Under the pieces are notes generated by a model. The model saw nothing but the letters and a program-made list of their open reading frames with translations. It was not told the origin of the DNA and searched no databases. Below, one piece after another: positions 137 through 43,777 of a stretch of 50,693 nucleotides of DNA. Origin of the DNA: Prevotellaceae bacterium (lineage in GTDB: Bacteria > Bacteroidota > Bacteroidia > Bacteroidales > UBA932); assembly GCA_031275825.1 (NCBI GenBank), contig JAISOH010000059.1:1-50693 (forward strand), written 5' to 3'. Position numbers and translations under genes: made by a program. Positions within the stretch are counted from its first letter, which is position 1. Every line of letters starts with the position of its first letter.

Positions 137-1357
137 TCATTCTATAAGCCTTACAAGGTCTTTTTTCATTTCTTCGTCTATATCCCGATACCGGGCAAAT
201 GCTTTACTGCTTTCTGCATGTCCGGTTAATGCTCCTACCAAATTAGGGTCTTTAACCTGTTTGTATATATTGCCTATGAATGTTCTGCGGGCAATGTGAG
301 AACTTGCAATTTCATTCAAGGGTTTTTGTTCGGTTTTGCGCGTGCGCGGATTAATTATTGTAATTTGCCGTGTAATGCCTGCAATGGTGAATATTTTTTT
401 TAATGCTTCGTTGTATTTGACGTCAGATATGAACGGTAATAATTTATTGCTGCCATAATCTTTATATTTGTCTAAAATTCGCATTGCTACTTTATTTAAT
501 GGCACTCTCACTGTTTTTACATGTTCATCTATCGTTTTGCGAGGTATATATTCAATAGCCCCATCTATCAGATTATCTTTTGTGAAATTTATAAGGTCGC
601 TTACCCTGCAACCTGTACAGCAATGGAATATAAATATATCCCTCTGTATTTCAAGATGCGGAAAATTGCTAAAATCGCATTCATATATTTTATTTCGTTC
701 TTCAATAGTCAAATAGTATGGAGTGCCGTACAGGTCAGGAGGTATTGAGAATTTTTCAAACGGATTATTTTTGATATATTCATTCTCGAGAAGCCACCTG
801 AAAAATGTCCTCATTCTTTTCAATATTCCGTTTTTTGTGTTATGTCCTCTTTCTCCATTATCAATAAACATAAAAAAATCTTTAACAAATTCTACGCTGA
901 TATTACGTATGTCTATCTTTAATCTGTTTGCAGTTTCAAATTCTGTCATAAGTTTACACAATCCTCTAAATTGCCTTTCTCTCATGATTTTATATTGTTT
1001 TTTTGAAAGAAAAACATTGAACAAATCCTGTATTTGTTCTGTACGCTCGTGCGATTTGTTAAGCCGTCTGTTTATTTCTGCCGTTAGCAGTTCGGATGTT
1101 GGCTGCGGGAGCGACAAGTAAGATTGCAGTACTGTTGTTTTGCGCTCAAAAATTGCAGCATTTAAGCCAATGCGTTCCTGTGTTGCAATGTAAGCGTAAC
1201 GGGAACTTATGCCCTGCTCTTTTTTACTCCACGCCTTTGTCTTGATTTCGATTTCAGAGGTATAATAAAGTTTTTGTTTGCCTCTGCCCTGCGAAACTTC
1301 AAATCTTACTTTTGTCGTTTCTTTTTTCGATTTAATAAAAGCCGTTACCGTTGCCAT
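137..1357 (-). CDS. tyrosine site-specific recombinase (phage-integrase family)
   Basis: 406-aa ORF. The C-terminal catalytic region has HIARRTF (H-x-x-R), LTGH and a terminal ARY tyrosine. Its start lies about 165 bp from the 3' end of tRNA-Arg. Confidence 0.9.
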   Translation of the reverse strand: MATVTAFIKSKKETTKVRFEVSQGRGKQKLYYTSEIEIKTKAWSKKEQGISSRYAYIATQERIGLNAAIFERKTTVLQSYLSLPQPTSELLTAEINRRLNKSHERTEQIQDLFNVFLSKKQYKIMRERQFRGLCKLMTEFETANRLKIDIRNISVEFVKDFFMFIDNGERGHNTKNGILKRMRTFFRWLLENEYIKNNPFEKFSIPPDLYGTPYYLTIEERNKIYECDFSNFPHLEIQRDIFIFHCCTGCRVSDLINFTKDNLIDGAIEYIPRKTIDEHVKTVRVPLNKVAMRILDKYKDYGSNKLLPFISDVKYNEALKKIFTIAGITRQITIINPRTRKTEQKPLNEIASSHIARRTFIGNIYKQVKDPNLVGALTGHAESSKAFARYRDIDEEMKKDLVRLIE

Positions 1358-1522
1358 TTTTTAATGCAAAGTTAAAAAACTTTCCGAACATTTTCCGAAC
1401 ATAATTAAAAATAATTGAAACTTATTAAAAACAATTAAAAGTGAAGATACTTAAAAACGCCTGAAAAACAAGTAATTAGTTTTAATTAATTTTATTTGGT
1501 TTTAGTTGATTTTATAAAAAAG

Positions 1523-1594
1523 TAGTCTCGGCGGGATTCGAACCCACATCAAAAGAACCGGAATCTTTCATTCTATCCATTGAACTACGAGACC
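1523..1594 (-). tRNA. tRNA-Arg (anticodon CCG)
   Basis: The reverse complement reads GGTCTCG TA GTTC AATGGATA GAAT G AAAGA TTCCGGT TCTTT TGAT GTGGG TTCGAAT CCCGC CGAGACT A. This is a 72-nt cloverleaf with a TTCGAAT T-loop and an anticodon loop TT-CCG-GT. Folded by eye. Confidence 0.85.
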
Positions 1595-1824
1595 AAAATT
1601 TTTACAAAGGTAAGATAAAGTTTGTAAACTAATAAAATTTCGCAAGTCTGAAATTTGCTTTGCCTTGTCAATGACGAACAAGCAGCAGAGTGTCATTGCA
1701 CGAAGCGAAGAAAAAGACTAAGGGTTTATAAATAAAATGCATTATCGAGATTGCAGAATTTTAATCAATATCTGCATAAAATCCTGCATTTTCACTTATT
1801 TACTTCGGTTTGCGTTTTATTATC

Positions 1825-1855
1825 AATAAACTGTTTGTACGGCTATTAATGAGCG
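1825..1855 (+). repeat. dispersed motif copy 1 (AATAAACTGTTTGTACGGCTATTAATGAGCG)
   Basis: Near-identical strings occur at 28485-28515 and 34317-34346, all in the same orientation. Confidence 0.7.
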
Positions 1856-1904
1856 GCCGTTTATTGTAAATTATTTAATCACAATTAACAGTTTGTTTGT
1901 AAAA

Positions 1905-6167: not shown

Positions 6168-6281
6168 GTTTGTAAATGTATTATATCTGTAGAAAATATA
6201 TCAAATTCATTTAAATGTAATCTTTCATAGAAATCTTCGTTAAATTTAATTGCTGTAATAATTTAGGTGGAATATCCTCAA

Positions 6282-7377
6282 TTAATGTATTTTGTATGTA
6301 CATAAGTAGTAAAATATATCGAAACAATAAACAGATGGATTGTCAAATCCGTTTATTTCCGAAAATCTATGCATCAACAATCCGCCGCCACAAACATCTT
6401 TTACAATACAATTTCTACATTTTTTACATAAAACATTATCTTGATGAGCATTATAGAATTTATAAAAGATATCTTCATTAATTATATCGTCTAATTCGTT
6501 GTACATGATATTATATTTAGCCAGCAGCAAATTATTTCCACAAATTCGTAATGTATCAACTACGTCAATATCGCCATTAGTTCTTATATCAATGACTCCA
6601 TTAAAATTTCTGCCAAATAATTCTCCTCCTGCATAATTTTCATTCCCTAAAAATAAATTGATGGCATCCTCAAACATTCGTATTCTTGGTTTGTTTTTGT
6701 TTCTATCAAAATACCATAAATCAAATAATTTTATTAACCATAACCCAAGTTTATTTGCATTCATATCAAACTTGTCGTAAGTCGAATCAGGAGGTAGGCA
6801 ATCCATATATGACACAGATATATCGTTAAAAAAAGTATAATACTCATCAGTGTCAATATTGGTATTGATAACAGACAAAATGGCCGGTATTATATATTTT
6901 TTTGAAATGTTGTAACCATCCATAATGCTATTATATGCAGCATGTTCGTTGGTTTTAAAAATTCTATTATTTGATGCTGTTTTATTACCATCAATGCTTA
7001 TACATACTTGTATATTGTGCATTTTAAATAAATTACAGAACATTTCTGTTAACAATGTTCCATTTGTTTGAATAGAATAATGTAATTTTGCAGATGTAAC
7101 AATTTTCTCTGCCAATTTAATAAATTCCTCGTAAAATGATTTTCCAACTATAAGCGGTTCGCCTCCGTGAAATATAATGAGGAATGAGTTTAACTTATTT
7201 TTTTTACAATATTGCTCTATCTTTTGTAATATTTTTTTTTACTATATCAAAATCCATAATATCAGGTTCATTCAGGTATGATTTATCTGTTTTGTTATAA
7301 ACATAACAATATTTGCATGAAAGATTGCATATGTTTGTTACTTTTAATATTATGCATTTAATAATCATTATAAACAT
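6282..7377 (-). pseudogene. radical SAM / SPASM-domain peptide maturase, split by a frameshift in an A9 run (module A)
   Basis: The N-terminal piece runs from ATG 7377 (or 7368) and reads MFIMIIKCIILKVTNICNLSCKYCYVYNK..., with CX3CX2C. It stops at 7204-7206. The downstream frame (track ORF 6282-7115) continues ...KILQKIEQYCKKNKLNSFLIIFHGGEPL...IQTNGTLL... and ends with the SPASM-like CKKCRNCIVKDVCGGG. Both frames are open only across the T9 run at 7232-7240, which is A9 on the coding strand. Removing one A joins them. Confidence 0.8.
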
Positions 7378-7463: not shown

Positions 7464-7661
7464 TTAATGAACATCATGATATGTGTGGAATATTCCTATA
7501 TAGGCATTATCTTGAGCCATCAACTGAGATGTGTCGCCGGTTAAATTTCCTGAGTTACTTGTTCCTCCTTTTATCTTACCTAAAGATCTTTTGTTTAACA
7601 CTTTGGAAACTTCCTTGCCATTTTTTTTAAATTCATCTAATGTTAATTTTACTTTCTTCAT
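7464..7661 (-). CDS. GG-leader precursor peptide A
   Basis: 65 aa. The Lys-rich leader is MKKVKLTLDEFKKNGKEVSKVLNKRSLGKIKGG and the core is TSNSGNLTGDTSQLMAQDNAYIGIFHTYHDVH. It is the first gene behind the conserved promoter cassette and sits directly upstream of the rSAM/SPASM gene. Confidence 0.75.
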   Translation of the reverse strand: MKKVKLTLDEFKKNGKEVSKVLNKRSLGKIKGGTSNSGNLTGDTSQLMAQDNAYIGIFHTYHDVH

Positions 7662-7683: not shown

Positions 7684-7820
7684 TCAGCTAATTTTCAGGC
7701 ATAGCCTTTCTCCTTTTATTTGACAAAGGTACAAACATGTTTTTTGAAAAAAATACTTTTGGGCGTAAATAAAATTTCACACTTTGTATAATTTTATTTC
7801 ACACTTTCGGGTAGGCGTTT
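7684..7820 (-). promoter_or_regulatory. conserved promoter cassette, copy 1
   Basis: Shared with 18658-18744 and 23092-23230. Elements are the direct repeats ATTTCACACT at 7774-7783 and 7796-7805 (22-bp period), the palindrome AAACATGTTT at 7733-7742, and TACCTTTG on the minus strand (7724-7731), which matches the Bacteroides -7 consensus TAnnTTTG. The conserved 5' leader reads GGCTATGCCTGAAAATTAGC. Confidence 0.7.
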
Positions 7821-7825
7821 GATGT

Positions 7826-7885
7826 TTAGCCGTTTATGTCGTAATAATCATAATAGTCAGATAATTCAGATGTGTTAGAATACAT
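7826..7885 (-). pseudogene. 3' remnant of an XRE-type HTH gene (paralog of 23236-23505)
   Basis: It translates to MYSNTSELSDYYDYYDING*. The C-terminus of the intact gene is ...SEFSDLYAYYDIFN*. It sits in the same position relative to the promoter cassette as the intact gene does. Confidence 0.5.
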
Positions 7886-7959: not shown

Positions 7960-10626
7960 TTAAATTTTCATATTGAATTTCAACATAATATATCCGGGAA
8001 TACGGTAAAGATAATTTTCTACGATAACATTTTCTATATGTGAAATTTCGCGCCAGCGTTTATTCGACAAATGCAACATATCGCTGCCTGTTAATTCAAT
8101 TCCGTATTTTTCGTTGAATTTGTATCGCACATTTGCATCCCAGTAATAAAAATTTTGTGTAATCTTGCCTGCATTATTATTTTCATAACCAACAGATGTT
8201 GATATATAAAAACGGTTTTTAGCGAACGATATTTTTCCCGTATAACGTTGGATATCCTGCTTGTTCGAAACTGTTGTTTTGTAATATGACTGTGAAAAAT
8301 TTGCATAAACAGATCCATTGAAACCCTGTTTGTAACCGCTTTCTATTCCGATATTTGCCGATGGCGAATAACTGCGATATTTTATTTTGTTACTATTTAT
8401 AAAATATAGATATTTATTTTGCTGATAATTTATTTCTATTCTAAAATTTATCGGAGCAAATAAAAATTTTTTGGAAAAAGATGACATCGCAAAAAATGTT
8501 TGTTTTTCAGGACTTGTAACTGTTTTGACTTCATTTGTCAATCCTGCACGGAAATAATCTTTTGTTGTTGTATTTTTGTTGGTTTCGTACGATATATTTG
8601 TTATCAACTGTAAATTTCTGAATTGATTTACGATTATTAATAATGATGATATTCTGTGTTTTACGTAATATAAATCTGTAACATTGTTGCCGTACATATA
8701 GTTGCTGTAATCATTTAGATATATGCTCGAAATCAAATTTCCTGCTGATAATGAACTGATATTTTTGCTATAAGAAATTGTTAATCGCTGCGAGTGTTTC
8801 GGTACAAATGAAAATTCAATCTGCGGTTCGAAAATAATTTTATTGTTATCTGCAAGTATGTTTACATTATCTTTGGATGTGATATTTCGCAGAGCGCCTC
8901 CAATTTTAAATCCAAAAACTCCTTTGTTTTTTATAAATTTTAAGTTTAAACTTTGGTCAAAGCGATTAAAAAAAATATTATTTGATAAATTATCATCCGC
9001 AAGTAATTTTTTATTGCTGTTTGGAATCTTATCATAAATACAGGATGTAAATACATTATACATATAACCTGCTCCAAGCGTTATACGCATAAAATACTGT
9101 TCGTTAAACCTGTGTAAATATGAAAAATCCAATGTTGTATTAACATTTTTTGTTGCACTTTCCTGTAATCCGTAAAACATATTACCTGTTTCGGTAAAAG
9201 GTATCGGCAATAAAAGCGAATCTGTTCGAAAGTCGTAATATGCAGGACTCATTTTATATGAAAAACTTGCATTTGCCGTTAAAACATTTTCATTTATTTT
9301 TTTCAGCATGGTAAAAGCATGACTTGTATTCAACGATTTTTTACTGTTTTTGTCAAATACATAAAAATCAATATTTTTTACATCCGTATTGAATTTTACG
9401 AAAGTGTCATCAAATTTTCCCTGATAACTGTAATTTGTTTTTTCTGAAAAGTCGTATGCTAATTTCAAAAATACACTGCCGATGATATTGTATTTTTTTG
9501 TTTTTTCGAAATTAAAATAATTTTCATTCGTATCAAAGAAAGTATATCTTTTTTCCTTATCGGCTCTCAATTTCGATAAATTCAAAAGTCCATAAGAATT
9601 TATTTTAATTTTTTTGTTTGGCTGTGACGATAAATTTACGGAAGTTAAGGCGTTGGTATTACTGTAAACATTAGAAATATCAGGTTGCAGTAGCGCTGTT
9701 TCCGTTTCGTCAAACTCAAACGAAAATACATCGGTATTGTTAATAAATTCATTTAATCCGCCCTTCATTTTCAGATAATCCATAAAATCCAAAAGCGATT
9801 CGCCTGTATTATTTGCCGAAAGCGTTACAGAACTCATAATTTTAGGGAATAAACTTATAATATTGTTTTTCGTAGAATATTTATCTTTTACGCCTCCTGA
9901 AACACTTAAATTTCCGGTAATTTTTCCCAAAAAACTGTCGTTTACTTTCACATTTACAGCAGTTTTTTCATGCGATTGAAATCCTCTTAAAATACTGTAT
10001 TCGCTGTAATTGGTAACAACTTCCACTTTGTCGGCAATGTTTGCAGGCAAATTTTGCGTTGCTATTTGCGTATTGCCCGAAAACAGATCTCTTCCTTCGA
10101 TAAGAACTGTTTCAACATTTTTTCCCTGTGCTTTTATTCTTCCCGATTTATCGACTTCAATTCCCGGAAGTTTGTTCATCATGTCGCCGAGAGTAATTTC
10201 CGAACCATCGGTATATGCACGCGGGTCATAACGTATCGTGTCGCCGATAATTTCAAAACCTTTATAGTTTGCCGTTATTTTGGCTTCATTAATCTTCTCG
10301 GCTTCTTCTTTCAAAATAAAATCTGTTTCCAAATCATTGTTGCCGAAAAACCATACATTTGTACTTTCTGCCGAATATCCTATGCATCTTGCTTCTACGC
10401 TGTATTGTCCGTTTTGTATTCCGTTTATCTGATATTTACCTGCTTCGTCGCTTGATGTATATTTTACAACCGCGGAATCTTTTGTTGTACGTAATGTGAT
10501 TGTGGCAAATGAAACAGGATTATTGCTGTCATTGATTATTTTGCCTTTCAGTTTGTTTGTTTGAGCAAAAATCACGTTTGAAGAGTAACAACAAAATATC
10601 AATATAACGACAATAAATTTTTTCAT
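7960..10626 (-). CDS. outer-membrane beta-barrel family protein (CarboxypepD_reg-like N-domain); module B
   Basis: 888 aa. It has a signal peptide and an N-terminal GKIINDSNNPVSFATITL...DEAGKY segment. A plug-like LPGIEVDKSG...IEGRD stretch is followed by a long beta-strand-rich C-terminal region. Confidence 0.8.
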   Translation of the reverse strand: MKKFIVVILIFCCYSSNVIFAQTNKLKGKIINDSNNPVSFATITLRTTKDSAVVKYTSSDEAGKYQINGIQNGQYSVEARCIGYSAESTNVWFFGNNDLETDFILKEEAEKINEAKITANYKGFEIIGDTIRYDPRAYTDGSEITLGDMMNKLPGIEVDKSGRIKAQGKNVETVLIEGRDLFSGNTQIATQNLPANIADKVEVVTNYSEYSILRGFQSHEKTAVNVKVNDSFLGKITGNLSVSGGVKDKYSTKNNIISLFPKIMSSVTLSANNTGESLLDFMDYLKMKGGLNEFINNTDVFSFEFDETETALLQPDISNVYSNTNALTSVNLSSQPNKKIKINSYGLLNLSKLRADKEKRYTFFDTNENYFNFEKTKKYNIIGSVFLKLAYDFSEKTNYSYQGKFDDTFVKFNTDVKNIDFYVFDKNSKKSLNTSHAFTMLKKINENVLTANASFSYKMSPAYYDFRTDSLLLPIPFTETGNMFYGLQESATKNVNTTLDFSYLHRFNEQYFMRITLGAGYMYNVFTSCIYDKIPNSNKKLLADDNLSNNIFFNRFDQSLNLKFIKNKGVFGFKIGGALRNITSKDNVNILADNNKIIFEPQIEFSFVPKHSQRLTISYSKNISSLSAGNLISSIYLNDYSNYMYGNNVTDLYYVKHRISSLLIIVNQFRNLQLITNISYETNKNTTTKDYFRAGLTNEVKTVTSPEKQTFFAMSSFSKKFLFAPINFRIEINYQQNKYLYFINSNKIKYRSYSPSANIGIESGYKQGFNGSVYANFSQSYYKTTVSNKQDIQRYTGKISFAKNRFYISTSVGYENNNAGKITQNFYYWDANVRYKFNEKYGIELTGSDMLHLSNKRWREISHIENVIVENYLYRIPGYIMLKFNMKI

Positions 10627-17734: not shown

Positions 17735-17762
17735 AAATAGGGTACAATATCGTACCCTATTT
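17735..17762 (-). terminator. hairpin plus T-run between the mini-ORFs and YcaO B (attenuator/terminator-like)
   Basis: AAATAGGGTAC (17735-17745) pairs with GTACCCTATTT (17752-17762) around a 6-nt loop. On the minus strand a T7 run follows it. Confidence 0.6.
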
Positions 17763-17773
17763 ATACTCTCAAC

Positions 17774-17890
17774 TTAGATTACAGATCTGTTTTGGAAATG
17801 AAAATAAGCCGGCGCAGCACTTGCTGCCATTAAAAGTAAGATAGGTACAGCAGCGACTTCATGTTCTTCTTCTTGTGTAAAATACTTCAT
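17774..17890 (-). CDS. mini-ORF B1 (38 aa), candidate precursor peptide or small membrane peptide
   Basis: Below the ORF-track cutoff. It reads MKYFTQEEEHEVAAVPILLLMAASAAPAYFHFQNRSVI and is a paralog of B2. Confidence 0.55.
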   Translation of the reverse strand: MKYFTQEEEHEVAAVPILLLMAASAAPAYFHFQNRSVI

Positions 17891-17945
17891 GATTTTGATT
17901 TTTAAAAAATTAAACATTAATAGATAATATAAGACCCCAAAGAAA

Positions 17946-18059
17946 TTATATCAAACTACGATTTTCATGAAAAAGAAGGAATCGTAATAAGGTAGCTAAA
18001 ATTGGAGCTAAATTTAATTCTTCATTTGAAGAATCCTCATAATTTGTAAAATACTTCAT
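17946..18059 (-). CDS. mini-ORF B2 (37 aa), paralog of B1
   Basis: It reads MKYFTNYEDSSNEELNLAPILATLLRFLLFHENRSLI. With B1 it shares the MKYFT start, an acidic stretch, a hydrophobic centre and an FH-x-NRS-(V/L)-I end. Confidence 0.55.
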   Translation of the reverse strand: MKYFTNYEDSSNEELNLAPILATLLRFLLFHENRSLI

Positions 18060-18179
18060 AACTTTGAAATTTTAATTTATTAAACATTTTATTAATTTTA
18101 TAAAAGCAATTTTCATCGCTCTTATTGATAGCGAAGTAAGTAATTAAATCTTTACAATCTATCAGATGTGTTCAACTAT

Positions 18180-18231
18180 CTAATAAGTGACAGATTTGAA
18201 CTAATAAGTGATAGACTTTTACAAATAAGTG
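18180..18231 (-). promoter_or_regulatory. three direct repeats at an exact 21-bp period upstream of the mini-ORFs
   Basis: On the plus strand: CTAATAAGTG at 18180-18189, CTAATAAGTG at 18201-18210 and CAAATAAGTG at 18222-18231. They lie 120-170 bp upstream of the B2 ATG. Confidence 0.6.
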
Positions 18232-18235
18232 TTTT

Positions 18236-18585
18236 TTATATCAGTTCAACAAAATGTTTTTTGAACTCTATCCACTTTCTGTCAGATACTTTCAGTTTTA
18301 TATTATTTGTGAGTAATATTTCCTTTTTTCTATTGTTAACTTGCTGTATGTATCTGGCATTAACCAAAGTATTATGATGTATTCTAATGAAACCATAAGT
18401 TGCAAGTTCGTTTTCAAAAGATTTTAAAAGTTTTGAACAAGTAATCCTGTCTTCTTTATCAATATATATATATCGCACAGGTAACAATCAGATATTATAT
18501 ACGTTATATTTATTGCCATAAGTTGACGAGTAATGCCGCCTGTTGTAACAACAATAGATTTTGTATTTTGTAAATCATAGTTCAT
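18236..18585 (-). pseudogene. standalone LytTR-domain DNA-binding protein, frame broken at an (AT)6 tract
   Basis: The upstream frame from ATG 18585 reads MNYDLQNTKSIVVTTGGITRQLMAINITYIISDCYLCDIYI.... The track ORF (18236-18487) reads ...YIDKEDRITCSKLLKSFENELATYGFIRIHHNTLVNARYIQQV..., which is LytTR-like (FxRxHxS/TxxVN). Deleting one AT from (AT)6 at 18462-18473 fuses them into a 115-aa protein. Confidence 0.7.
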
Positions 18586-18657: not shown

Positions 18658-18744
18658 TACAAAGGTAAAAACATGTTTTTCAAAAAAACACTTTTTGGCG
18701 TAAATAAAATTTCACACTGTGTATAATTTTATTTCACACTTTCG
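18658..18744 (-). promoter_or_regulatory. conserved promoter cassette, copy 2 (upstream of the LytTR gene)
   Basis: ATTTCACACT at 18709-18718 and 18731-18740, palindrome at 18669-18678, and the -7 box CAAAGGTA (plus strand) at 18660-18667. Confidence 0.7.
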
Positions 18745-18992
18745 GCATAACCGCTTGCCATTGAATATTCTATGCTCGTTCCTTTGCCATTAGTGCCTAT
18801 ATCAAATTCCATTAAGTTATCATTAGCGATTACAATTCTACAAGTAAAATAATCACCATCTTGTATAAATTTTTCGGATACAAATATACCAAGTTCACTC
18901 AGTATAGAACGAATTTTGTTTATAGTAATTACCGGCTTTTCTTCTTTATACGGTTTTAACATCTTATTCATACCATTATATTTTAAATCCAT
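18729..18992 (-). pseudogene. YcaO N-terminal stub (about 85 codons), truncated at the junction with promoter cassette copy 2
   Basis: It reads ...INKIRSILSELGIF...DIGTNGKGTSIEYSMASGYAE and then runs into cassette sequence (SVK*). The DNA around 18743-18810 closely matches YcaO A at 5940-6000. Confidence 0.8.
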
Positions 18993-22881: not shown

Positions 22882-23067
22882 TTAATGATTATAACCAGGG
22901 TAACAAGCAGCGTAACAAGCATTATCAGTGTTTCCATCTAATAGTATGTCGCCTAAGTTCTCTCCCTTTCCTCCTCCTTTAAGTTTTTTTAGCATCTCGC
23001 CATTTAACGAAAAGTACTTGATTTCATTTAATTTGGTGCTTTGTACCTTTTTTGATACTTTTTTCAT
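22882..23067 (-). CDS. GG-leader precursor peptide C
   Basis: 61 aa. The leader is MKKVSKKVQSTKLNEIKYFSLNGEMLKKLKGG and the core is GKGENLGDILLDGNTDNACYAACYPGYNH. It is the first gene behind cassette copy 3. Confidence 0.75.
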   Translation of the reverse strand: MKKVSKKVQSTKLNEIKYFSLNGEMLKKLKGGGKGENLGDILLDGNTDNACYAACYPGYNH

Positions 23068-23091
23068 ATTAATAAAATTTTTTAATTTTTG

Positions 23092-23230
23092 GCTAATTTT
23101 CAGGCATAGCCTTTTTCCTTTTTTATTTTTTCACAAAGGTACAAACATGTTTTTCAAAAAAAATGCTTTTTGGCGTAAATAAAATTTCACACTATGTATA
23201 ATTTTATTTCACACTTTTACGTAAGCGTTT
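23092..23230 (-). promoter_or_regulatory. conserved promoter cassette, copy 3
   Basis: ATTTCACACT at 23184-23193 and 23206-23215, palindrome at 23143-23152, and the -7 box at 23134-23141. Confidence 0.7.
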
Positions 23231-23235
23231 ATTAT

Positions 23236-23505
23236 TCAGTTGAATATATCATAATAAGCATACAAGTCAGAAAATTCGGAATCTTCGGGAAATTTTTCTT
23301 TTTCCTTAAAATGTTTAAAGAAATTATAATCCAATACCTTTGATATTTGCAGCAGCAATGCAGTATCAATGCTCGAACGCTTAAAAATATCATAAACATT
23401 TTCGCGTGTTTTATTGATTAGCCTTGCAAATTCGGTAACAGTAAGAGAACTTTGATTTACCTTTTGCCGTATAAGGTTGCCTATGTGAACTTCATTTTTT
23501 TTCAT
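23236..23505 (-). CDS. small XRE-type helix-turn-helix protein
   Basis: 89 aa. LTVTEFARLINKTRENVYDIFKRSSID is an HTH-like stretch. The gene heads the whole minus-strand locus. Confidence 0.7.
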   Translation of the reverse strand: MKKNEVHIGNLIRQKVNQSSLTVTEFARLINKTRENVYDIFKRSSIDTALLLQISKVLDYNFFKHFKEKEKFPEDSEFSDLYAYYDIFN

Positions 23506-24010: not shown

Positions 24011-24084
24011 GGCGCGGTAGCTCAGCTGGTTAGAGCGCATGATTCATAATCATGAGGTCTCCGGTTCAATCCCGGATCGCGCTA
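24011..24084 (+). tRNA. tRNA with CAT anticodon (elongator Met, or Ile2 if lysidinylated)
   Basis: It folds as GGCGCGG TA GCTC AGCTGGTTA GAGC G CATGA TTCATAA TCATG AGGTC TCCGG TTCAATC CCGGA TCGCGCT A. It is not initiator-like: there is no C1-A72 mismatch and no GGG/CCC anticodon stem. Confidence 0.85.
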
Positions 24085-24103
24085 CTGCTCAATTCCCAAC
24101 TAC

Positions 24104-28430: not shown

Positions 28431-28484
28431 TCTATCCTCAATAATGCATTTTCATTCATTAATTTCGGCATGTGATTTGTTTTT

Positions 28485-28515
28485 AATAAACAGTTTGTGC
28501 GGCTATTAATGAGCG
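28485..28515 (+). repeat. dispersed motif copy 2 (AATAAACAGTTTGTGCGGCTATTAATGAGCG)
   Basis: See 1825-1855 and 34317-34346. Confidence 0.7.
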
Positions 28516-28626
28516 ATTGTTTAATTGTTTCCTACTTTTTCGGGTTGTTTAGTTTGTTATTTCGCTTTACGAAAACAGCAGAATCAATATTATTATGGCT
28601 AAAATTACCTATATACTCGTTCTTTA

Positions 28627-39083: not shown

Positions 39084-39198
39084 ACAGTCAAAGACCTTTT
39101 GTCCGTACAGTCAAAGACCTTTTGACAGCACAGCCAAAGACCTTTTGACAGCACAGCCAAAGACCTTTTGACAGCACAGCCAAAGATCTTTTGACTGA
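39084..39198 (+). repeat. 5 x 23-bp tandem repeat
   Basis: The unit is ACAG(C/T)CAAAGACCTTTTGACAGC. Units start at 39084, 39107, 39130, 39153 and 39176. The array begins 4 nt after the stop of 38349-39080. Confidence 0.9.
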
Positions 39199-39224
39199 AC
39201 GGAACAGGAGGCAGGATTAAATCT

Positions 39225-39286
39225 AACGGCGGAACCCGAAAAGCCGGAACAGAGTAGGGATTTTTTACAGAACGTATTTTTTTAAT
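39225..39286 (+). repeat. 62-bp intergenic element, copy 1
   Basis: AACGGCGGAACCCGAAAAGCCGGAACAGAGTAGGGATTTTTTACAGAACGTATTTTTTTAAT. It is repeated at 43716-43777 with one indel and one mismatch. Confidence 0.85.
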
Positions 39287-39335
39287 TGTAAAAACAGTGA
39301 AATCTTTAGTTTGTAATTTTTTAATATGGAATTTT

Positions 39336-40298
39336 ATGAAAAGAATGAATCTGAGACGAATACTTTTAGTTCCGGTATTCCTGTTTGCAACAATGGCAGC
39401 AGTGCCGGCGCAAACCACAGCCGCAAAAAAAACAGACCGGGACAAAAGCGGCTTAAAAGGTAAGGTGAAAAGTGCGGAAATGATTACTTACGAAACAATA
39501 AACAAATTCGGCGAACTTACCAAAGGAGAGATAAATGAGCATACATTAGTAAAATATGATGCTAAAGGGAATGGGACTGAATATAATAAATATAACTCCG
39601 GTGGCAGTTTAATTGAAAAACAGACTTACAAATACGACGCCAAAGGGAATATGACTGAATATAATAAATATAACTCCGGTGGCAGTTTAATTGAAAAACA
39701 GACTTACAAATACGACGCCAAAGCGAACATGGTTGAATATAATGCATATAACTCCGATGGCAGTTTAGATTGTATAAATACTTACAAATACGATGACGGA
39801 GGGAACAAGATTGAACAGAATCAATTTTGCCCGAACAAAAGATTATCCTGGAAGTGGAACTGGAGTAAAACCTGGAAATATAATGCTAAAGGGAAGGTGA
39901 TTGAACATAATAACCCTGTAACTTCTCCCGATGGCAATTTAATGGCAAAACAGACTTGGGAATACGATGCCACCGGAGAAAATGCGATTGAATATAATAA
40001 ATATAACCCCGATGGCAGTTTAGATTATAAAAATACTTGGAAATATGACGGCAGAGGAAATATGATTGAACAGAATGTATATAGTTCCAATGGCAGTTTA
40101 CATCATAAAAATACCTGGAAATATGACGACAGAGGCAACCGGATAGAGGAAAACCGGTATAACTCCGGTGGCAGTTTAGAACATAAAGAGACTCGGGAAT
40201 ATGACAACAAAGGGAATACGGTTAAAATGACTGAGTATAAAGGCGAAGTAAGTATTGCCACAAAAATTATTGAGCAAATCATAGAATATTATGAATAA
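39336..40298 (+). CDS. secreted protein built of YD-like repeats, paralog 1
   Basis: I place the start at MKRMNLRRILLVPVFLFATMAAVPAQ (a signal peptide). The body is about 26-aa repeats of the form (Y/W)KYDxxGNxxExxxYNxDGSLxxKxT. It ends in IIEYYE*. Confidence 0.6.
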   Translation: MKRMNLRRILLVPVFLFATMAAVPAQTTAAKKTDRDKSGLKGKVKSAEMITYETINKFGELTKGEINEHTLVKYDAKGNGTEYNKYNSGGSLIEKQTYKYDAKGNMTEYNKYNSGGSLIEKQTYKYDAKANMVEYNAYNSDGSLDCINTYKYDDGGNKIEQNQFCPNKRLSWKWNWSKTWKYNAKGKVIEHNNPVTSPDGNLMAKQTWEYDATGENAIEYNKYNPDGSLDYKNTWKYDGRGNMIEQNVYSSNGSLHHKNTWKYDDRGNRIEENRYNSGGSLEHKETREYDNKGNTVKMTEYKGEVSIATKIIEQIIEYYE

Positions 40299-41067
40299 AA
40301 AAAATAAAAAAATGAAACGTATAATATTATTAACATTATTCGCAGCAGCGATGGCAGTATGCGGCGTAGCCCAAACCGCAGATTTGAAAGGCAAAGTGAA
40401 AAGCATAAGAGTAATCCCTTATGAAGCAAGGGAAGAGTCCGGATATCTTACCAAAGAGTATATAAGCGAATGGGAATATAATTACATGATTAAATATAAT
40501 GACAAAGGTTATATGACAGACCGGATATACTACAAATACGACGGCAGTTTAGAAAGTAGAAATACATATACTTATAAATATGACGCGCAGAGCAACATGA
40601 CAGAGAAGTACAGGTATGACTCAAACGGCAGTTTAGATGAGCAAATAAAATACAAATATGACGCCAAAGGCAAGATGACAGAGTCCAGCGTGTATAATTC
40701 GGACGGCAGTTTGAGGTATAAGTACACTTATAAATATAACGCACAGGGCAAAATAACAGAGCAAAACAGATATAAACCGGACGGCAGTTTATTCGACAAA
40801 TATACTTACAAATATGACGCTAATGGAAATCGAACAGAAACGAACGATTATAATTCGGACGGCAGTTTAAGGAGTAAAGAAACTTCTAAATATGATACCG
40901 GAGGCAACGAGATAGAATATAACAGGTATAAATCAGACGGCAAATTAAACAGGAAAGGTACTTTTAAATACAGATATGATAATAAGGGCAACTGGATTGA
41001 ACAGACAGCATATTACGACTCGGATGCTCCGATTATCATTGAACGTACAATAGAATATTATGAATAA
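40291..41067 (+). CDS. secreted protein built of YD-like repeats, paralog 2
   Basis: It has a signal peptide (possibly starting at 40312, MKRIILLTLFAAAMAVCG), the shared GKVKS motif and the same repeat type. It ends in IEYYE*. Its ATG overlaps the stop of paralog 1 (TATGAATAA). Confidence 0.6.
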   Translation: MNKKNKKMKRIILLTLFAAAMAVCGVAQTADLKGKVKSIRVIPYEAREESGYLTKEYISEWEYNYMIKYNDKGYMTDRIYYKYDGSLESRNTYTYKYDAQSNMTEKYRYDSNGSLDEQIKYKYDAKGKMTESSVYNSDGSLRYKYTYKYNAQGKITEQNRYKPDGSLFDKYTYKYDANGNRTETNDYNSDGSLRSKETSKYDTGGNEIEYNRYKSDGKLNRKGTFKYRYDNKGNWIEQTAYYDSDAPIIIERTIEYYE

Positions 41068-42214
41068 AATGAATAATGAAACAATAAAAATGAAAACAAT
41101 TTTAACAATTCTAATGCTTTGCGGGGTTTGCTGCGGCAATGCGCAAAAAAACGACGTAGAAAACGACGGTTTGAAAGGCAACGTTAAAACAGTTAAATAT
41201 GACGTGTATCAGGCGTCGGTTACCGCCGCCGGCGTTGTTCCGGGTGAAAAAACAGAGGACACCAAAAGCCATTACTGGAGGTCATACGACCGCAACGGAA
41301 ACTCGCTTCACAGTGTATATTACCGTAAAGACGGGACAAAGTATTCCGAATATATTTACGGCAACGGTAAACTGATACGGTATAACATGTATAACGATTA
41401 TGAAGAAATATACGAATATATTCAATATGAATATAACAGCAGGGGGAAACCCGTTTTAGAAAGCACTTACGAAAATGGCGACGAGGATGAATTTCGCACG
41501 GGATTTTATGGCAATAAACAAACAGCCAATACCATTTACGGACACTTGGATAGAACGTGCGAATATACATACGACGCCAATGACAGGGTTATAAAAAAAA
41601 TGTATAAATCGTATGATTATAAAAATGAACTTTCCTTTCAGAGCCTCGCAGAATATACGTATGACAGTGCAGGCAAAATGACCGGTAAATATGAACGCAG
41701 GGCATTTAATAAACACAGCAACGGCGTTGAAGAAAGATGTACTTATACCTATGACGCCAAAGGGAAACTGGTGGAAGAAATTATTTATACCCGTCATGGC
41801 AGTAATTATGACAAACCCATGAACAGAAAATATTATTACGACGCCAATGACCGGTTGATCCTGAAAGAACAGTATTATCCACCCGGCAAAAAATCACGAA
41901 GCGAAACATATACCCGCGACAGCAACGGTAGAACCGTTAAATATGAAGTATGGGACAGCAGCAGCAGGTTGAATGCAACAGATATTGTAAACCGGGACTA
42001 CAGCGGCACGGAAATAGACGAATGTAGCTATGATGATAAAGGGAATATCGTAGCAAGGACACTGACAGATAAAAACGGCGTTATACAAAAAGTTGAAATA
42101 ACATACGAATACGACGCACACGGGAACATAATAAAAAATATTCAGAAATACAGCCGGAATAATGAGCCTTTTAAGTACAGTTTAATTTGTATACAGGAAA
42201 TAGAATATTATTAA
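41060..42214 (+). CDS. secreted protein built of YD-like repeats, paralog 3 (more diverged)
   Basis: It has a signal peptide, GLKGNVKTVKY and YTYDANDR / YTYDAKGK / YEYDAHGN repeats. It ends in IEYY*. The same ATG/stop overlap is seen with paralog 2. Confidence 0.6.
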   Translation: MNKMNNETIKMKTILTILMLCGVCCGNAQKNDVENDGLKGNVKTVKYDVYQASVTAAGVVPGEKTEDTKSHYWRSYDRNGNSLHSVYYRKDGTKYSEYIYGNGKLIRYNMYNDYEEIYEYIQYEYNSRGKPVLESTYENGDEDEFRTGFYGNKQTANTIYGHLDRTCEYTYDANDRVIKKMYKSYDYKNELSFQSLAEYTYDSAGKMTGKYERRAFNKHSNGVEERCTYTYDAKGKLVEEIIYTRHGSNYDKPMNRKYYYDANDRLILKEQYYPPGKKSRSETYTRDSNGRTVKYEVWDSSSRLNATDIVNRDYSGTEIDECSYDDKGNIVARTLTDKNGVIQKVEITYEYDAHGNIIKNIQKYSRNNEPFKYSLICIQEIEYY

Positions 42215-42337: not shown

Positions 42338-43711
42338 ATGAAAAAGAGTATCAATTTATCAGGCTTAATACTGCTGACAGCAGTATGTATTTTTGCTTCG
42401 GCGGCAACAGTATATGCTAATGAACAGATTGTTATGAAAACAGCTGGAGATTATGTATCCTTTAACATAACAAGAAATTGTGTAGAGAGAATAGATTGGG
42501 GAGACGGAACAACGGCGACACTTTACGACTCGGATTACTCGAATAACGAGATTAACAGTTTTACACATAAGTATTCGGATAAAAGATCGCGCACAATTGT
42601 TATAACAGCCAAAGCCTCTATTTACACGTTTGTTTGCATAAACGGAGATTTAACAAGTTTGGACGTAAGTAAATGTCTGCATTTGGGTTATCTAACTTGC
42701 CGCAAAAATCAATTAACGAGTTTGGATATAGACAAATGTACGGAGTTAGAAGATTTAGATTGCGCCGAAAATCAATTGACGCAATTAGATATTAATGCCT
42801 GTCCGAAACTGAGATCTTTGTCTTGTTACAACAATTCATTAACATATCTGGATTTGAGCAAAGCCGCTGCATTGAAGACATTCAACTGCGACAAAACCCG
42901 GATATCCAGTATAGATTTACGTAAACTTCCTGCACTGACAGGTTTATCTTGCAGCGGCACGCCAATATCGGAACTGCATATTGAGCATTGCCCGTTGCTT
43001 AAGTATCTGTATTGTTCCGGAACGCGACTGCAACAGCTCGATTGCAACGCCTGTCCGCAGTTGGAAAAACTGGATTGCAGCAGAATCCCGATACATTATT
43101 TATATGTTGACAAATGTACAGAATTGAAGGAACTTAATTGCAGCGAAACGGAACTGTACAGTTTGGATGTACGGGGAAACACAAAATTGTATAAACTAAT
43201 AGTATTCAAATGCAAAATGTTGCAGGAACTGCGGTACGACCGCGATAGAATAATATCAGCGGGTAACGGTTATGGTGTTGTCAATGATTCGGACTGTCCA
43301 TTACTGCCTAAACCAAATCCGCAAGGCACAATTTCGATAAATATGCGCAACGCTAACAACGGCAACACAATTGTTATCATAAATGATTTCGACAATAAGG
43401 GTTTTTACATAGATGCGGAAAACTTTGAAGGCAAGGACTGGCAATTTGTAAAAATTGGTGCAACAAAAGGATTGGGTCACATGTACCGCCCCATAGGTTA
43501 CTATATACAGACATACAAGCCGAAATGGTCAGACCGCGTATCGGTAACTCCCGGGTATGGATATATCGCCCGCTGCCGTTACGGCGCTTGGCATGGTTAC
43601 CTTATAATATATGTTGTAAGGGAAATAATAAGCGCCGAAGATGGAAAATCTGTCATAGGTGCGGAGATAGATTATGTGGAAAACGGAAAGTATCCAGTAA
43701 GAGTGCAGTAA
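42338..43711 (+). CDS. secreted leucine-rich-repeat protein
   Basis: 457 aa with a signal peptide. It has about 9 repeats of roughly 22-23 aa of the form LTSLD(V/I)xxCxxLxxLxCxxNxL, followed by a non-repeat C-terminal domain. Confidence 0.75.
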   Translation: MKKSINLSGLILLTAVCIFASAATVYANEQIVMKTAGDYVSFNITRNCVERIDWGDGTTATLYDSDYSNNEINSFTHKYSDKRSRTIVITAKASIYTFVCINGDLTSLDVSKCLHLGYLTCRKNQLTSLDIDKCTELEDLDCAENQLTQLDINACPKLRSLSCYNNSLTYLDLSKAAALKTFNCDKTRISSIDLRKLPALTGLSCSGTPISELHIEHCPLLKYLYCSGTRLQQLDCNACPQLEKLDCSRIPIHYLYVDKCTELKELNCSETELYSLDVRGNTKLYKLIVFKCKMLQELRYDRDRIISAGNGYGVVNDSDCPLLPKPNPQGTISINMRNANNGNTIVIINDFDNKGFYIDAENFEGKDWQFVKIGATKGLGHMYRPIGYYIQTYKPKWSDRVSVTPGYGYIARCRYGAWHGYLIIYVVREIISAEDGKSVIGAEIDYVENGKYPVRVQ

Positions 43712-43715
43712 TTTC

Positions 43716-43777
43716 AACGGCGGAACCCGAAAAGCCGGAACAGAGTAGGGATTTTTTAACAGAAGTATTTTTTTAAT
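43716..43777 (+). repeat. 62-bp intergenic element, copy 2
   Basis: See 39225-39286. It starts 5 nt after the stop of the LRR gene. Confidence 0.85.

What the first reader, a model, noticed from the sequence alone, without database searches (positions are those of the whole stretch)
7684..7885. A promoter cassette with 22-bp-phased direct repeats occurs three times and drives both precursors and the LytTR gene
Copies lie at 7684-7820, 18658-18744 and 23092-23230. Read on the transcribed (minus) strand, each contains AAGTGTGAAAT-N11-AAGTGTGAAAT (22-bp period). Then come the 10-bp palindrome AAACATGTTT, the box TACCTTTG (a match to the Bacteroides -7 consensus TAnnTTTG) and, in copies 1 and 3, a conserved leader GGCTATGCCTGAAAATTAGC before the ATG.

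Two 9-11-bp direct repeats two helical turns apart, placed 45-75 bp upstream of the -7 box, is the architecture bound by LytTR regulators such as AgrA, ComE, PlnC and BlpR. Copy 2 sits in front of the LytTR gene itself, which would give positive autoregulation. The palindrome is a separate candidate operator for the XRE-type HTH protein (23236-23505). The 3' end of that gene is part of the duplicated unit, as the remnant at 7826-7885 shows.
Basis: partly seen in the sequence, partly recalled or inferred. Interest (0 to 1): 0.7.

Follow-up and report, generated by a model that had tools for sequence, protein, structure and literature searches.

The report
Repeat-bearing promoter module tied to HTH regulator
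Three copies of a roughly 140-bp promoter module with two phased 10-bp repeats really do sit in front of two peptide-precursor genes and a LytTR regulator gene, but comparison with related genomes ties the repeats to the small helix-turn-helix gene next door, while the LytTR protein has its own, different repeat array.

Summary
Three minus-strand cassettes carry AGTGTGAAAT twice at a 22-bp period, then AAACATGTTT and TACCTTTG. These are the only six exact AGTGTGAAAT in the 50.7-kb window.

The locus is a RiPP (ribosomally made, modified peptide) gene cluster of a Prevotellaceae genome.

Eight related cassettes from other Prevotellaceae assemblies show where conservation lies:
- A contiguous 45-bp repeat block is conserved (0.88-0.98 pairwise identity).
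- The -7 box TACYTTTG is conserved (0.93).
- The flanks (0.47-0.64) and the palindrome are not well conserved.

In 10 of 11 cassettes an XRE-type HTH gene, or its remnant, lies upstream, 20-50 nt away in most. All seven HTH homologs of at least 68% identity carry the block downstream.

The LytTR gene is cargo of the cassette, not its partner:
- All three cassette-driven copies are broken.
- Four intact orthologs lack the motif.
- All five LytTR genes are followed by a different array, three CACTTATT-like units at exactly 21 bp, which fits LytTR sites better.

Best model: HTH protein acts on the cassettes (two precursors and LytTR), and LytTR acts on its own array. This is a cascade, not LytTR autoregulation. 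The binding step is inferred, not shown. It is an ordinary kind of regulated promoter in a little-studied setting.

The parts
23236..23505 (-). Only intact XRE-type HTH gene of the locus (89 aa). It is the candidate binder of the repeat blocks.
   Evidence: Pfam HTH_3. The AlphaFold model is a five-helix XRE bundle with a disordered tail, and its nearest folds are HipB, restriction-modification controller (C) proteins, ClgR and SinR. The family has only 13 proteins.
23172..23216 (-). Cassette 3 repeat block: AAGTGTGAAAT-AAAATTATACA-TAGTGTGAAAT-TTTATTTACGCC. Repeat units are at 23206-23215 and 23184-23193.
23134..23152 (-). Cassette 3 core promoter: AAACATGTTT (23143-23152) and the -7 box TACCTTTG (23134-23141).
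   Evidence: The box is conserved as TACYTTTG in all related cassettes.
23091..23111 (-). Leader stem-loop GGCTA-N11-TAGCC in the 5' UTR of precursor A.
   Evidence: Five-pair stem, two pairs with compensatory changes across 8 leaders. The identical leader sits behind a LytTR-type promoter in L119.
22882..23067 (-). Precursor peptide A (61 aa, GG-type leader ...LKKLKGGG).
   Evidence: Ortholog in L026.
18697..18741 (-). Cassette 2 repeat block (units 18731-18740 and 18709-18718). It is fused upstream to a truncated YcaO fragment (18729-18992).
   Evidence: The YcaO fragment matches full-length orthologs in L026 and L073.
18660..18678 (-). Cassette 2 core promoter: AAACATGTTT (18669-18678) and TACCTTTG (18660-18667).
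18236..18585 (-). LytTR-only regulator gene (115 aa when repaired). It is frameshifted in an (AT)6 run at 18462-18473, and removing one AT unit restores the frame.
   Evidence: Pfam LytTR, sequence, colinear alignment with four intact 115-121 aa orthologs. Only the last ~60 nt before the ATG are homologous to the orthologs' upstream regions, which indicates a promoter swap.
18182..18231 (-). Separate array of three CACTTATT units at an exact 21-bp period (starts 18231, 18210, 18189), directly after the LytTR stop codon. It is the probable LytTR binding site.
   Evidence: 2 overlapping matches against 0.15 expected. The same array follows all four intact LytTR orthologs.
17774..18059 (-). Two paralogous small hydrophobic peptide genes (18059-17946; 17890-17774). 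They are the likely targets of the LytTR array. A terminator lies at 17762-17735.
   Evidence: The -7-like box upstream is degenerate (TTACTTCG, 18132-18139).
7826..7885 (-). 3' remnant of a second HTH gene (…SELSDYYDYYDING*).
   Evidence: (repeat D2: 7716-7870 against 23126-23280, 83%).
7762..7806 (-). Cassette 1 repeat block (units 7796-7805 and 7774-7783).
7724..7742 (-). Cassette 1 core promoter: AAACATGTTT (7733-7742) and TACCTTTG (7724-7731).
7686..7706 (-). Leader stem-loop GGCTA-N11-TAGCT in the 5' UTR of precursor B.
7464..7661 (-). Precursor peptide B (65 aa, leader ...LGKIKGG).
   Evidence: Ortholog in L038.

Best explanation
Each cassette is a portable, activator-dependent Bacteroidota promoter module. 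It consists of four parts:
1. A conserved 45-bp block holding two TGTGAAAT-centred units two helical turns apart.
2. About 30 nt of variable A/T-rich spacer.
3. A sigma-ABfr-type -7 box, TACYTTTG.
4. For precursor genes, a leader with a small 5' stem-loop.

The block is most likely the tandem operator of the small XRE-type HTH protein whose gene travels with it. In this window that protein is encoded once intact (23236-23505) and would act in trans on all three cassettes.

The cassettes drive precursor A, precursor B and the LytTR gene. The LytTR protein in turn most likely binds a different array: three CACTTATT units at 21 bp, just after its own gene and ahead of two small peptide genes. The result is a two-tier cascade, not LytTR autoregulation. 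In this genome the second tier looks broken, because the LytTR gene is frameshifted and its target -7 box is degenerate.

Shown: the sequence anatomy, the conservation pattern, the gene linkage and the module swapping. Inferred: which protein binds which repeats, that binding activates rather than represses, and where transcription starts.
For: 1. Conservation maps a footprint.
- Across 10 cassettes, mean pairwise identity is 0.96-0.98 for the repeat cores, 0.88-0.89 for the stretches between and after them, and 0.93 for the -7 box.
- It is 0.63-0.64 for the flanks and 0.47 after the box.
- The two precursor genes in the window are barely alignable, although their promoters are 83-93% identical.

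2. Linkage to the HTH gene.
- An HTH gene or remnant lies upstream of 10 of 11 cassettes. It is about 20-50 nt away in most and about 300 nt away in L067.
- All seven HTH homologs of at least 68% identity found by protein search, which is independent of the DNA motif, have the block downstream.
- L133 was fetched as a prediction test and passed.

3. Parallel change.
- In L126 both units read GTGTAAAAT, and the HTH recognition helix reads RTRQNVYDIF instead of KTRENVYDIF.
- Homologs at 54-61% identity, with helices CHRV.. or RSRSD.., have other 21-22-bp-phased repeats at the same place, TTACGCGA x2 and TTGACGCT x2, again followed by TAATTTTG.

4. Module swapping.
- L119 has the identical leader GGCTATGCCTGAAAATTAGCC and a similar core promoter (72% identity).
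- There the upstream half is the LytTR gene plus its CCACTTATT array (48% identity, about background).
- Each regulator gene therefore moves together with its own repeats.

5. The LytTR protein has a better site.
- The three-unit, 21-bp array follows all five LytTR genes.
- Its units include CAGTT/CGGTT variants close to the LytTR consensus.
- Its spacers vary, as described for LytTR systems: 9-bp repeats separated by 12 bp (PMC6193735).

6. TACCTTTG also sits 10 nt before tRNA-Arg (1605-1612), so this box type is plausibly used as a promoter element in this genome. The -7 consensus itself is from PMC7366714.
Against: - No binding or transcription data exist.
- XRE proteins usually bind inverted repeats, and the dyad symmetry inside each unit is weak (GTGAAAT against GTATAAT 5 of 7; second unit 4 of 7).
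- Five of the related cassettes were found with a pattern that required the repeat cores, so core conservation is partly ascertainment. The spacer, post-repeat and box conservation, and the loci found through the protein, are not affected.
- Only about seven genomes, all close relatives, carry the cassette, so part of the conservation may reflect recent ancestry or gene conversion.
- At least one genome (JAISYZ, loci L073 and L122) has both the cassette and an intact LytTR gene, so action of LytTR in trans is not excluded.
- Repeat-to-box geometry is the same for both array types (41-42 nt) and does not discriminate between them.
- No TTTG lies at the canonical -33 distance.
Confidence: 0.55

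Rival explanations
1. One reading: the LytTR protein binds the two AGTGTGAAAT repeats, activates both precursor promoters and, through cassette 2, activates its own gene.
For: - Two 10-bp direct repeats at a 22-bp period fall within the 20-22 bp range reported for LytTR sites (PMC6193735).
- Cassette 2 does sit in front of the LytTR gene here and in L001 and L067.
- LytTR regulators commonly control peptide and bacteriocin loci (general knowledge).
- One genome (JAISYZ) has both an intact LytTR gene and a cassette.
Against: - The repeat has no GTT core and does not fit [TA][AC][CA]GTTN[AG][TG] (consensus recalled from the literature).
- The reverse strand shares only CACTT with the LytTR array, and that T is not conserved in the second unit.
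- The spacers are conserved, unlike typical LytTR sites.
- The four intact orthologs have another conserved upstream region and no AGTGTGAAAT in up to 20 kb.
- All three cassette-driven LytTR genes are inactivated independently: a frameshift, a truncation after residue 40 and a truncation after residue 15.
- A canonical 21-bp array follows every LytTR gene.
- Cassette loci L126, L129, L132 and L133 show no LytTR gene in the sequence available.
Confidence: 0.12
2. The block is bound by a third regulator encoded elsewhere in the genome. The HTH gene is merely a hitch-hiking neighbour, or it acts on another element such as the leader or the palindrome.
For: - Nothing here tests binding.
- Direct repeats are unusual for XRE proteins.
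- A TTACGC-like motif recurs downstream of several HTH homologs and could be the real HTH site: TTTACGCC in the window, TTGACGCT in L123 and L126, TTACGCGA in L125.
Against: - The window encodes no other obvious regulator of the cluster.
- The linkage between HTH gene and block is tight: 10 of 11 cassettes, and 7 of 7 by protein search.
- The regulator-plus-repeat unit is swapped as a whole against the LytTR-plus-array unit.
- Both units changed in parallel, together with the recognition helix, in L126.
Confidence: 0.22
3. The repeats are not protein-binding sites. The similarity of the copies reflects recent duplication or gene conversion of a promoter fragment, or an intrinsic DNA property such as an A-tract, UP-like element.
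For: - Few, closely related genomes carry the cassette.
- The locus is visibly rearranging, with gene fragments, deletions and frameshifts.
- The sequence is A/T-rich.
Against: - Within the same alignment the repeat block and the box are far better conserved than the sequence between and around them.
- The block persists in front of at least five different cargos: precursors A, B and C, the LytTR gene and a radical SAM gene.
- In L126 both units changed to the same new base.
Confidence: 0.08

Closest known systems
LytTR-regulated peptide and bacteriocin promoters (AgrA P2/P3, ComE, PlnC/D, BlpR; HdrR/BrsR 'LytTR regulatory systems', PMC6193735)
   Same: Paired direct repeats of about 9-10 bp spaced about two helical turns apart, upstream of promoters that drive small peptide genes. 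A receiver-less LytTR-only regulator is present in the locus.
   Different: - The cassette repeat lacks the LytTR consensus core.
- Its spacers are conserved.
- It lies about 20 nt further from the expected -33 position than the 4-11 nt reported for LytTR sites.
- It travels with an XRE gene, not with the LytTR gene.

The element in the window that does look like a LytTR site is the separate CACTTATT x3 array at 18182-18231. That array lies downstream of the LytTR gene, so it does not give autoregulation of the LRS type.
Tandem operators of small XRE/Cro-type HTH proteins (lambdoid OR1-OR2, restriction-modification controller C-protein OL/OR boxes, SinR sites)
   Same: - A 70-90 aa HTH_3 protein (fold matches).
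- Two adjacent sites of about 17-22 bp, centre to centre about two turns, which suggests cooperative binding of two dimers.
- The regulator gene is physically linked to its sites.
   Different: - The sites lie downstream of the regulator gene, about 55-100 nt upstream of the target start, rather than overlapping the regulator's own promoter.
- Dyad symmetry within each unit is weak.
- The promoter is of the Bacteroidota -7 type.
Bacteroidota primary-sigma (sigma-ABfr) promoters, -33 TTTG / -7 TAnnTTTG (PMC7366714 and references therein)
   Same: TACYTTTG is conserved in all cassettes, about 60 nt before the start codon. The same box precedes a tRNA gene in the window.
   Different: No TTTG lies at the canonical -33 distance, which is consistent with, but does not prove, dependence on an activator.

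Membership tests
LytTR-dependent promoter | Two direct repeats of about 9-10 bp separated by 11-13 bp | tested here: met
   10-bp units separated by 12 bp, giving a 22-bp period, in all three copies. The reference range is from PMC6193735.
LytTR-dependent promoter | Repeat sequence fits the LytTR consensus (central GTT, [TA][AC][CA]GTTN[AG][TG]) | tested here: not met
   AGTGTGAAAT has no such core on either strand (read from the sequence; consensus recalled from the literature). The CACTTATT/CAGTTATT/CGGTTGTT units of the second array fit much better.
LytTR-dependent promoter | Repeats sit immediately (4-11 nt) upstream of the -35-equivalent element | tested here: inconclusive
   The second repeat ends 42 nt before the -7 box, which is about 20 nt beyond the expected -33 position. 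The presumed genuine LytTR array has the same 41-nt geometry, so the rule may not carry over to Bacteroidota.
LytTR-dependent promoter | Motif co-occurs with the cognate LytTR gene | tested here: not met
   Intact orthologs (L119-L122) lack the motif. The cassette loci L126, L129, L132 and L133 show no LytTR gene. The LytTR copies linked to a cassette are all defective.
LytTR-dependent promoter | LytTR protein binds the repeats | not testable with these tools
   Needs a gel-shift or footprinting experiment.
XRE-type tandem operator | Sites are physically and evolutionarily linked to the XRE regulator gene | tested here: met
   10 of 11 cassettes have the HTH gene or its remnant upstream. All 7 homologs of at least 68% identity have the block downstream.
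XRE-type tandem operator | Each site is an inverted repeat bound by a dimer | tested here: inconclusive
   Only weak pseudo-dyads are present: GTGAAAT-AAA-ATTATAC (5 of 7 positions) and GTGAAAT-TTT-ATTTACG (4 of 7), in A/T-rich DNA (read).
XRE-type tandem operator | DNA specificity tracks the recognition helix | tested here: inconclusive
   KTRE helix goes with TGTGAAAT (8 loci), RTRQ with TGTAAAAT (L126), and CHRV and RSRSD helices with other phased repeats. This is suggestive, but there are few independent lineages.
Bacteroidota sigma-ABfr promoter | -7 element TAnnTTTG | tested here: met
   TACYTTTG is present in 11 of 11 cassettes. The motif alone is not significant in the window (109 matches against 87 expected).
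Bacteroidota sigma-ABfr promoter | -33 element TTTG at the canonical distance | tested here: not met
   The nearest TTTG ends 13 nt (copies 2 and 3) or 0 nt before the box, and none lies at about 17-20 nt.
Bacteroidota sigma-ABfr promoter | Transcription starts a few nt downstream of the box | not testable with these tools
   Needs 5'-RACE, dRNA-seq or metatranscriptome reads.

The most novel reading that the evidence does not exclude
A tiny XRE-family protein of Prevotellaceae acts as a far-upstream (class-I-like) activator. It binds two head-to-tail sites two turns apart. Together with its operator and a core promoter it forms a self-contained 'regulator + operator + promoter' cartridge. This cartridge is exchanged with an equivalent 'LytTR + array' cartridge in front of the same leader and precursor genes, which would make regulatory input to RiPP clusters modular and swappable, and wired here into a two-tier HTH-to-LytTR cascade.
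Probability: 0.35. Interest if true: 0.5.

Novelty: new member of a known kind. Interest (0 to 1): 0.35.

Why it matters
Very little is known about how Bacteroidota switch on peptide natural-product clusters, or about their activator-dependent promoters.

This locus offers two compact, testable pairs of regulator and operator:
- an 89-aa HTH protein with a 45-bp block;
- a 115-aa LytTR protein with a three-unit 21-bp array.

Both pairs are attached to the same core promoter and leader. Such pairs could serve as parts for controlled expression in Bacteroidales, and as handles to activate silent RiPP clusters from uncultured gut bacteria.

The result also corrects a tempting mis-assignment: phased direct repeats next to a LytTR gene are not necessarily LytTR sites.

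Tried and rejected
- **Genome-collection scan** with GTGTGAAAT-N13-GTGTGAAAT. Only five true cassettes were recovered, so the census is incomplete.
- **Metagenome scan** with a stricter pattern. It gave two chance hits unrelated to the cassette.
- **Rfam**. No RNA family matches in or near the cassettes.
- **Sigma-70 promoter scan**. It was at background level, as expected for Bacteroidota.
- **Plasmid and phage collections**. No match, so the cassette is not a known mobile-element sequence.
- **PDB searches** by sequence and by fold for the HTH protein. They returned only generic XRE relatives and gave no guidance on binding mode. The PDB sequence search for LytTR was uninformative.
- **Literature search** for LytTR in Bacteroidota RiPP clusters. 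Nothing relevant was found.
- **Palindrome AAACATGTTT as the HTH operator.** Rejected because it is not conserved.
- **Leader GGCTA..TAGCC as a protein operator.** Considered less likely than an RNA stem-loop, because the loop length varies from 5 to 14 nt while pairing is kept.
- **Reverse-strand CACTT shared with the LytTR array.** Rejected as coincidence, because the T is variable in the second unit.

Full report
**1. What is in the window**

All three share an invariant core of about 85 nt with four parts:
- AAAGTGTGAAAT-AAAATTATACA-nAGTGTGAAAT-TTTATTTACGCC;
- a T/A-rich stretch;
- AAACATGTTT;
- TACCTTTG.

Exact AGTGTGAAAT occurs six times in 50.7 kb, always as these three pairs. The 11-mer AAGTGTGAAAT is duplicated only in copy 1.

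Copies 1 and 3 continue into a common leader (GGCTATGCCTGAAAATTAGC) and also share about 60 nt upstream of the repeats. That upstream stretch is the 3' end of an XRE-type HTH gene. The gene is intact at 23236-23505 and reduced to a remnant at about 7826-7885.

**2. Gene context**

Everything from about 23.5 kb down to 1.9 kb is on the minus strand and forms a RiPP-type cluster. In transcription order it contains:
- the HTH gene;
- cassette 3;
- precursor A;
- a radical SAM/SPASM gene;
- an outer-membrane beta-barrel gene;
- an 87-aa N-terminal YcaO fragment that ends exactly at cassette 2;
- cassette 2;
- a LytTR-only gene;
- two genes for 37-38 aa peptides;
- YcaO, an M48 peptidase, ABC transporter genes and a large outer-membrane protein;
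- the HTH remnant;
- cassette 1;
- precursor B;
- a radical SAM gene;
- YcaO;
- an outer-membrane barrel gene.

tRNA genes and a tyrosine recombinase flank the cluster.

The LytTR gene is split by a frameshift in an (AT)6 run at 18462-18473. Deleting one AT unit gives a 115-aa protein colinear with intact orthologs. The radical SAM gene after precursor B has two frameshifts. The locus is thus decaying, or the assembly has indel errors.

**3. Related cassettes**

A genome-collection scan for the repeat pair was mostly noise but returned five true cassettes from four Prevotellaceae metagenome-assembled genomes: L001, L026 and L038 (same contig), L067 and L073. Protein searches with the HTH protein found a family of only 13 proteins. 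Their contigs added three more cassettes: L126, L132 and L133.

Block-wise mean pairwise identity across ten cassettes was as follows:

| Region | Mean pairwise identity |
|---|---|
| Repeat cores | 0.96-0.98 |
| Sequence between and just after the repeats | 0.88-0.89 |
| -7 box | 0.93 |
| Upstream flank and A/T spacer | 0.63-0.64 |
| Palindrome region | 0.76 |
| Sequence after the box | 0.47 |

The conserved objects are therefore a contiguous 45-bp block and the box TACYTTTG. The palindrome is exact in only 6 of 11 cassettes. It has one mismatch in L001 and L073 and is absent from L126, L132 and L133.

Part of the core conservation is ascertainment, because five loci were found with a pattern that required the cores. 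This does not apply to the conservation of the spacer, the post-repeat stretch or the box, nor to the three loci found through the protein.

TAnnTTTG on its own is not significant in the window (109 matches against 87 expected). However, the box matches the published Bacteroidota -7 consensus (PMC7366714), and the same TACCTTTG precedes tRNA-Arg by 10 nt. No TTTG lies at the canonical -33 distance.

**4. Which regulator goes with the repeats**

*The HTH gene.* tblastn of the window's proteins against the related loci shows the HTH gene upstream of every related cassette. It is about 20-50 nt away, except about 300 nt in L067. In the window it is intact before cassette 3 and a remnant before cassette 1. 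Only cassette 2 lacks it.

All seven HTH homologs of at least 68% identity found by protein similarity have the block downstream. L133 was fetched as a deliberate prediction test and passed.

In L126 both units read GTGTAAAAT, and the predicted recognition helix is RTRQNVYDIF instead of KTRENVYDIF. In homologs of 54-61% identity, with helices CHRV… or RSRSD…, the same position holds other 21-22-bp-phased repeats, TTACGCGA x2 and TTGACGCT x2, again followed by TAATTTTG.

*The LytTR gene.* In the three loci where LytTR follows a cassette, it is inactivated in three different ways:
- a frameshift in the window;
- truncation after residue 40 in L001;
- truncation after residue 15, with fusion to the end of the M48 gene, in L067.

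Four intact orthologs (64-70% identity) have a different conserved upstream region. They share only the last ~60 nt before the ATG with the window, so cassette 2 is a promoter swap. They have no AGTGTGAAAT anywhere in up to 20 kb.

**5. The LytTR protein has its own array**

Directly after the LytTR stop codon the window has three CACTTATT units with starts at 18231, 18210 and 18189. This is an exact 21-bp period (0.15 expected by chance).

The same three-unit array follows all four intact orthologs. Its features are:
- variable spacers;
- unit variants such as CCAGTTATT and CCGGTTGTT, which approach the LytTR consensus;
- a concerted CCACTT-to-CCGGTT change in L121.

About 41 nt downstream lies a -7-like TTTACTTTG, followed by a GG-leader precursor gene. 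In L119 that precursor has exactly the window's leader, GGCTATGCCTGAAAATTAGCC.

Comparing L119 with cassette 3 gives 72% identity from the core promoter to the ATG, with the hairpin segment identical. The regulator-proximal half is only 48% identical.

Two interchangeable cartridges therefore exist, HTH gene plus TGTGAAAT block and LytTR gene plus CACTTATT array, and either can be attached to the same core promoter and leader. The LytTR literature describes 9-bp repeats separated by 12 bp, occasionally 11 or 13 (PMC6193735). This fits the 21-bp array at least as well as it fits the cassette.

The only similarity between the two repeat types is CACTT on the opposite strand of the cassette. The final T of that 5-mer is variable in the second unit, so I treat the similarity as coincidence.

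**6. Other features**

The leader forms a five-pair stem-loop. Two pairs show compensatory changes across eight leaders (GGCTA/TAGCC, TGTTA/TAACA; L132 has GGTATA/TATACC), and the loop length varies. It is most simply a 5' RNA stem-loop.

The HTH protein models as a five-helix XRE bundle with a disordered acidic and aromatic tail. Its nearest structures are HipB, restriction-modification controller (C) proteins, ClgR and SinR. These fold matches are uninformative about binding mode, although tandem operators about two turns apart are classical for this fold. Dyad symmetry within each unit is weak.

**7. Model and rivals**

Best model (confidence about 0.55): the single intact HTH protein binds the 45-bp block of all three cassettes and controls precursor A, precursor B and LytTR. 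It probably activates, given that the block lies about 55-100 nt upstream of the start and the -33 element is poor. LytTR then acts on its own array ahead of the two small peptide genes. This is a cascade, and its second tier is defective in this genome: the LytTR gene is frameshifted, and the target box is degenerate (TTACTTCG at 18132-18139).

Rivals:
- LytTR binds the cassette (0.12).
- An unlinked third factor binds it (0.22).
- There is no protein site, only recent duplication or an intrinsic DNA property (0.08).

None of the binding steps is shown. The decisive experiments are gel-shift and footprinting assays with both proteins on both arrays, reporter assays with repeat mutations, and transcription-start mapping.

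**8. Novelty and interest**

This is an ordinary class of object, a regulated promoter with tandem operator repeats, in an uncharacterised setting. No publication on it was found, and the cassette is absent from the plasmid and phage collections and essentially absent from the metagenome collection.

It is a new member of a known kind. The modest points of interest are the swappable regulator-operator cartridges and the possible HTH-to-LytTR cascade in Bacteroidota RiPP clusters.

Noticed in passing
window 18182-18231 (minus strand); also L119 10353-10403, L122 649-678, L120 ~1650-1700, L121 ~10355-10405: Three CACTTATT-type units at an exact 21-bp period directly after the LytTR stop codon, conserved after all five LytTR genes.
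   Followed up: yes
window 18462-18473: An (AT)6 dinucleotide run carries the LytTR frameshift, and loss of one unit restores the frame. It could be a real inactivation, an assembly error or a slippage-prone switch.
   Followed up: partly
window ~6214-7368 (minus strand): The radical SAM/SPASM maturase gene after precursor B has two frameshifts relative to the intact 390-aa ortholog in L129. The listed 277-aa ORF (6282-7115) is only its middle part.
   Followed up: partly
window 18729-18992: An 87-aa N-terminal YcaO fragment ends exactly where cassette 2 begins (…ASGYAE|SVK*). Full-length orthologs occupy this position in L026 and L073, so a rearrangement put the cassette and the LytTR unit inside a YcaO gene.
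   Followed up: partly
window 17774-18059, terminator 17735-17762: Two paralogous 37-38 aa hydrophobic peptides (MKYFT…NRS[LV]I) without a GG leader, followed by a strong hairpin terminator. Their role (precursor, signal or membrane partner of LytTR) is unknown.
   Followed up: no
window 7686-7706 and 23091-23111; L026, L038, L119, L122, L126, L132 leaders: A small 5'-UTR stem-loop with compensatory base changes. The identical leader is found behind both HTH-type and LytTR-type promoters.
   Followed up: partly
window 39226-39260 and 43717-43751: Two copies of the Rfam DUF805b RNA motif, each inside a 69-nt repeat (39218-39286 and 43709-43777).
   Followed up: no
window 39084-39198: A five-unit tandem array of a 23-bp sequence (ACAGYCAAAGACCTTTTGACAGC, itself partly palindromic). 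It lies between an HU-like DNA-binding gene and RHS-repeat genes, just before the first DUF805b motif.
   Followed up: no
window 39492-40995: 78-nt periodic repeats inside three consecutive RHS-repeat ORFs (39297-42214).
   Followed up: no
window 1780-1863 and 28440-28523: An 84-nt repeat (79% identity) located just downstream of two outer-membrane or secreted-protein genes. Function unknown.
   Followed up: no
window 137-1594 and 24011-24085: A tyrosine recombinase gene next to tRNA-Arg(ccg) at one end of the cluster, and tRNA-Met at the other end. In L129 the orthologous cluster instead abuts pheT, so the cluster's location differs between genomes.
   Followed up: no
L011, L012, L021, L023, L051 and many other loci: Alphaproteobacterial arrays of GTGTGAAATGACGAA at a 22-bp period next to TTATCCACA (DnaA-box-like) sequences. 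These are iteron-like origin repeats that merely share the 9-mer with the cassette.
   Followed up: no
P0006-P0011 C-termini; window 23236-23280 and 7826-7870: The HTH family ends in an acidic and aromatic tail (SDYYDYYDI) that is predicted to be disordered and is duplicated in P0009. Its role is unknown.
   Followed up: no
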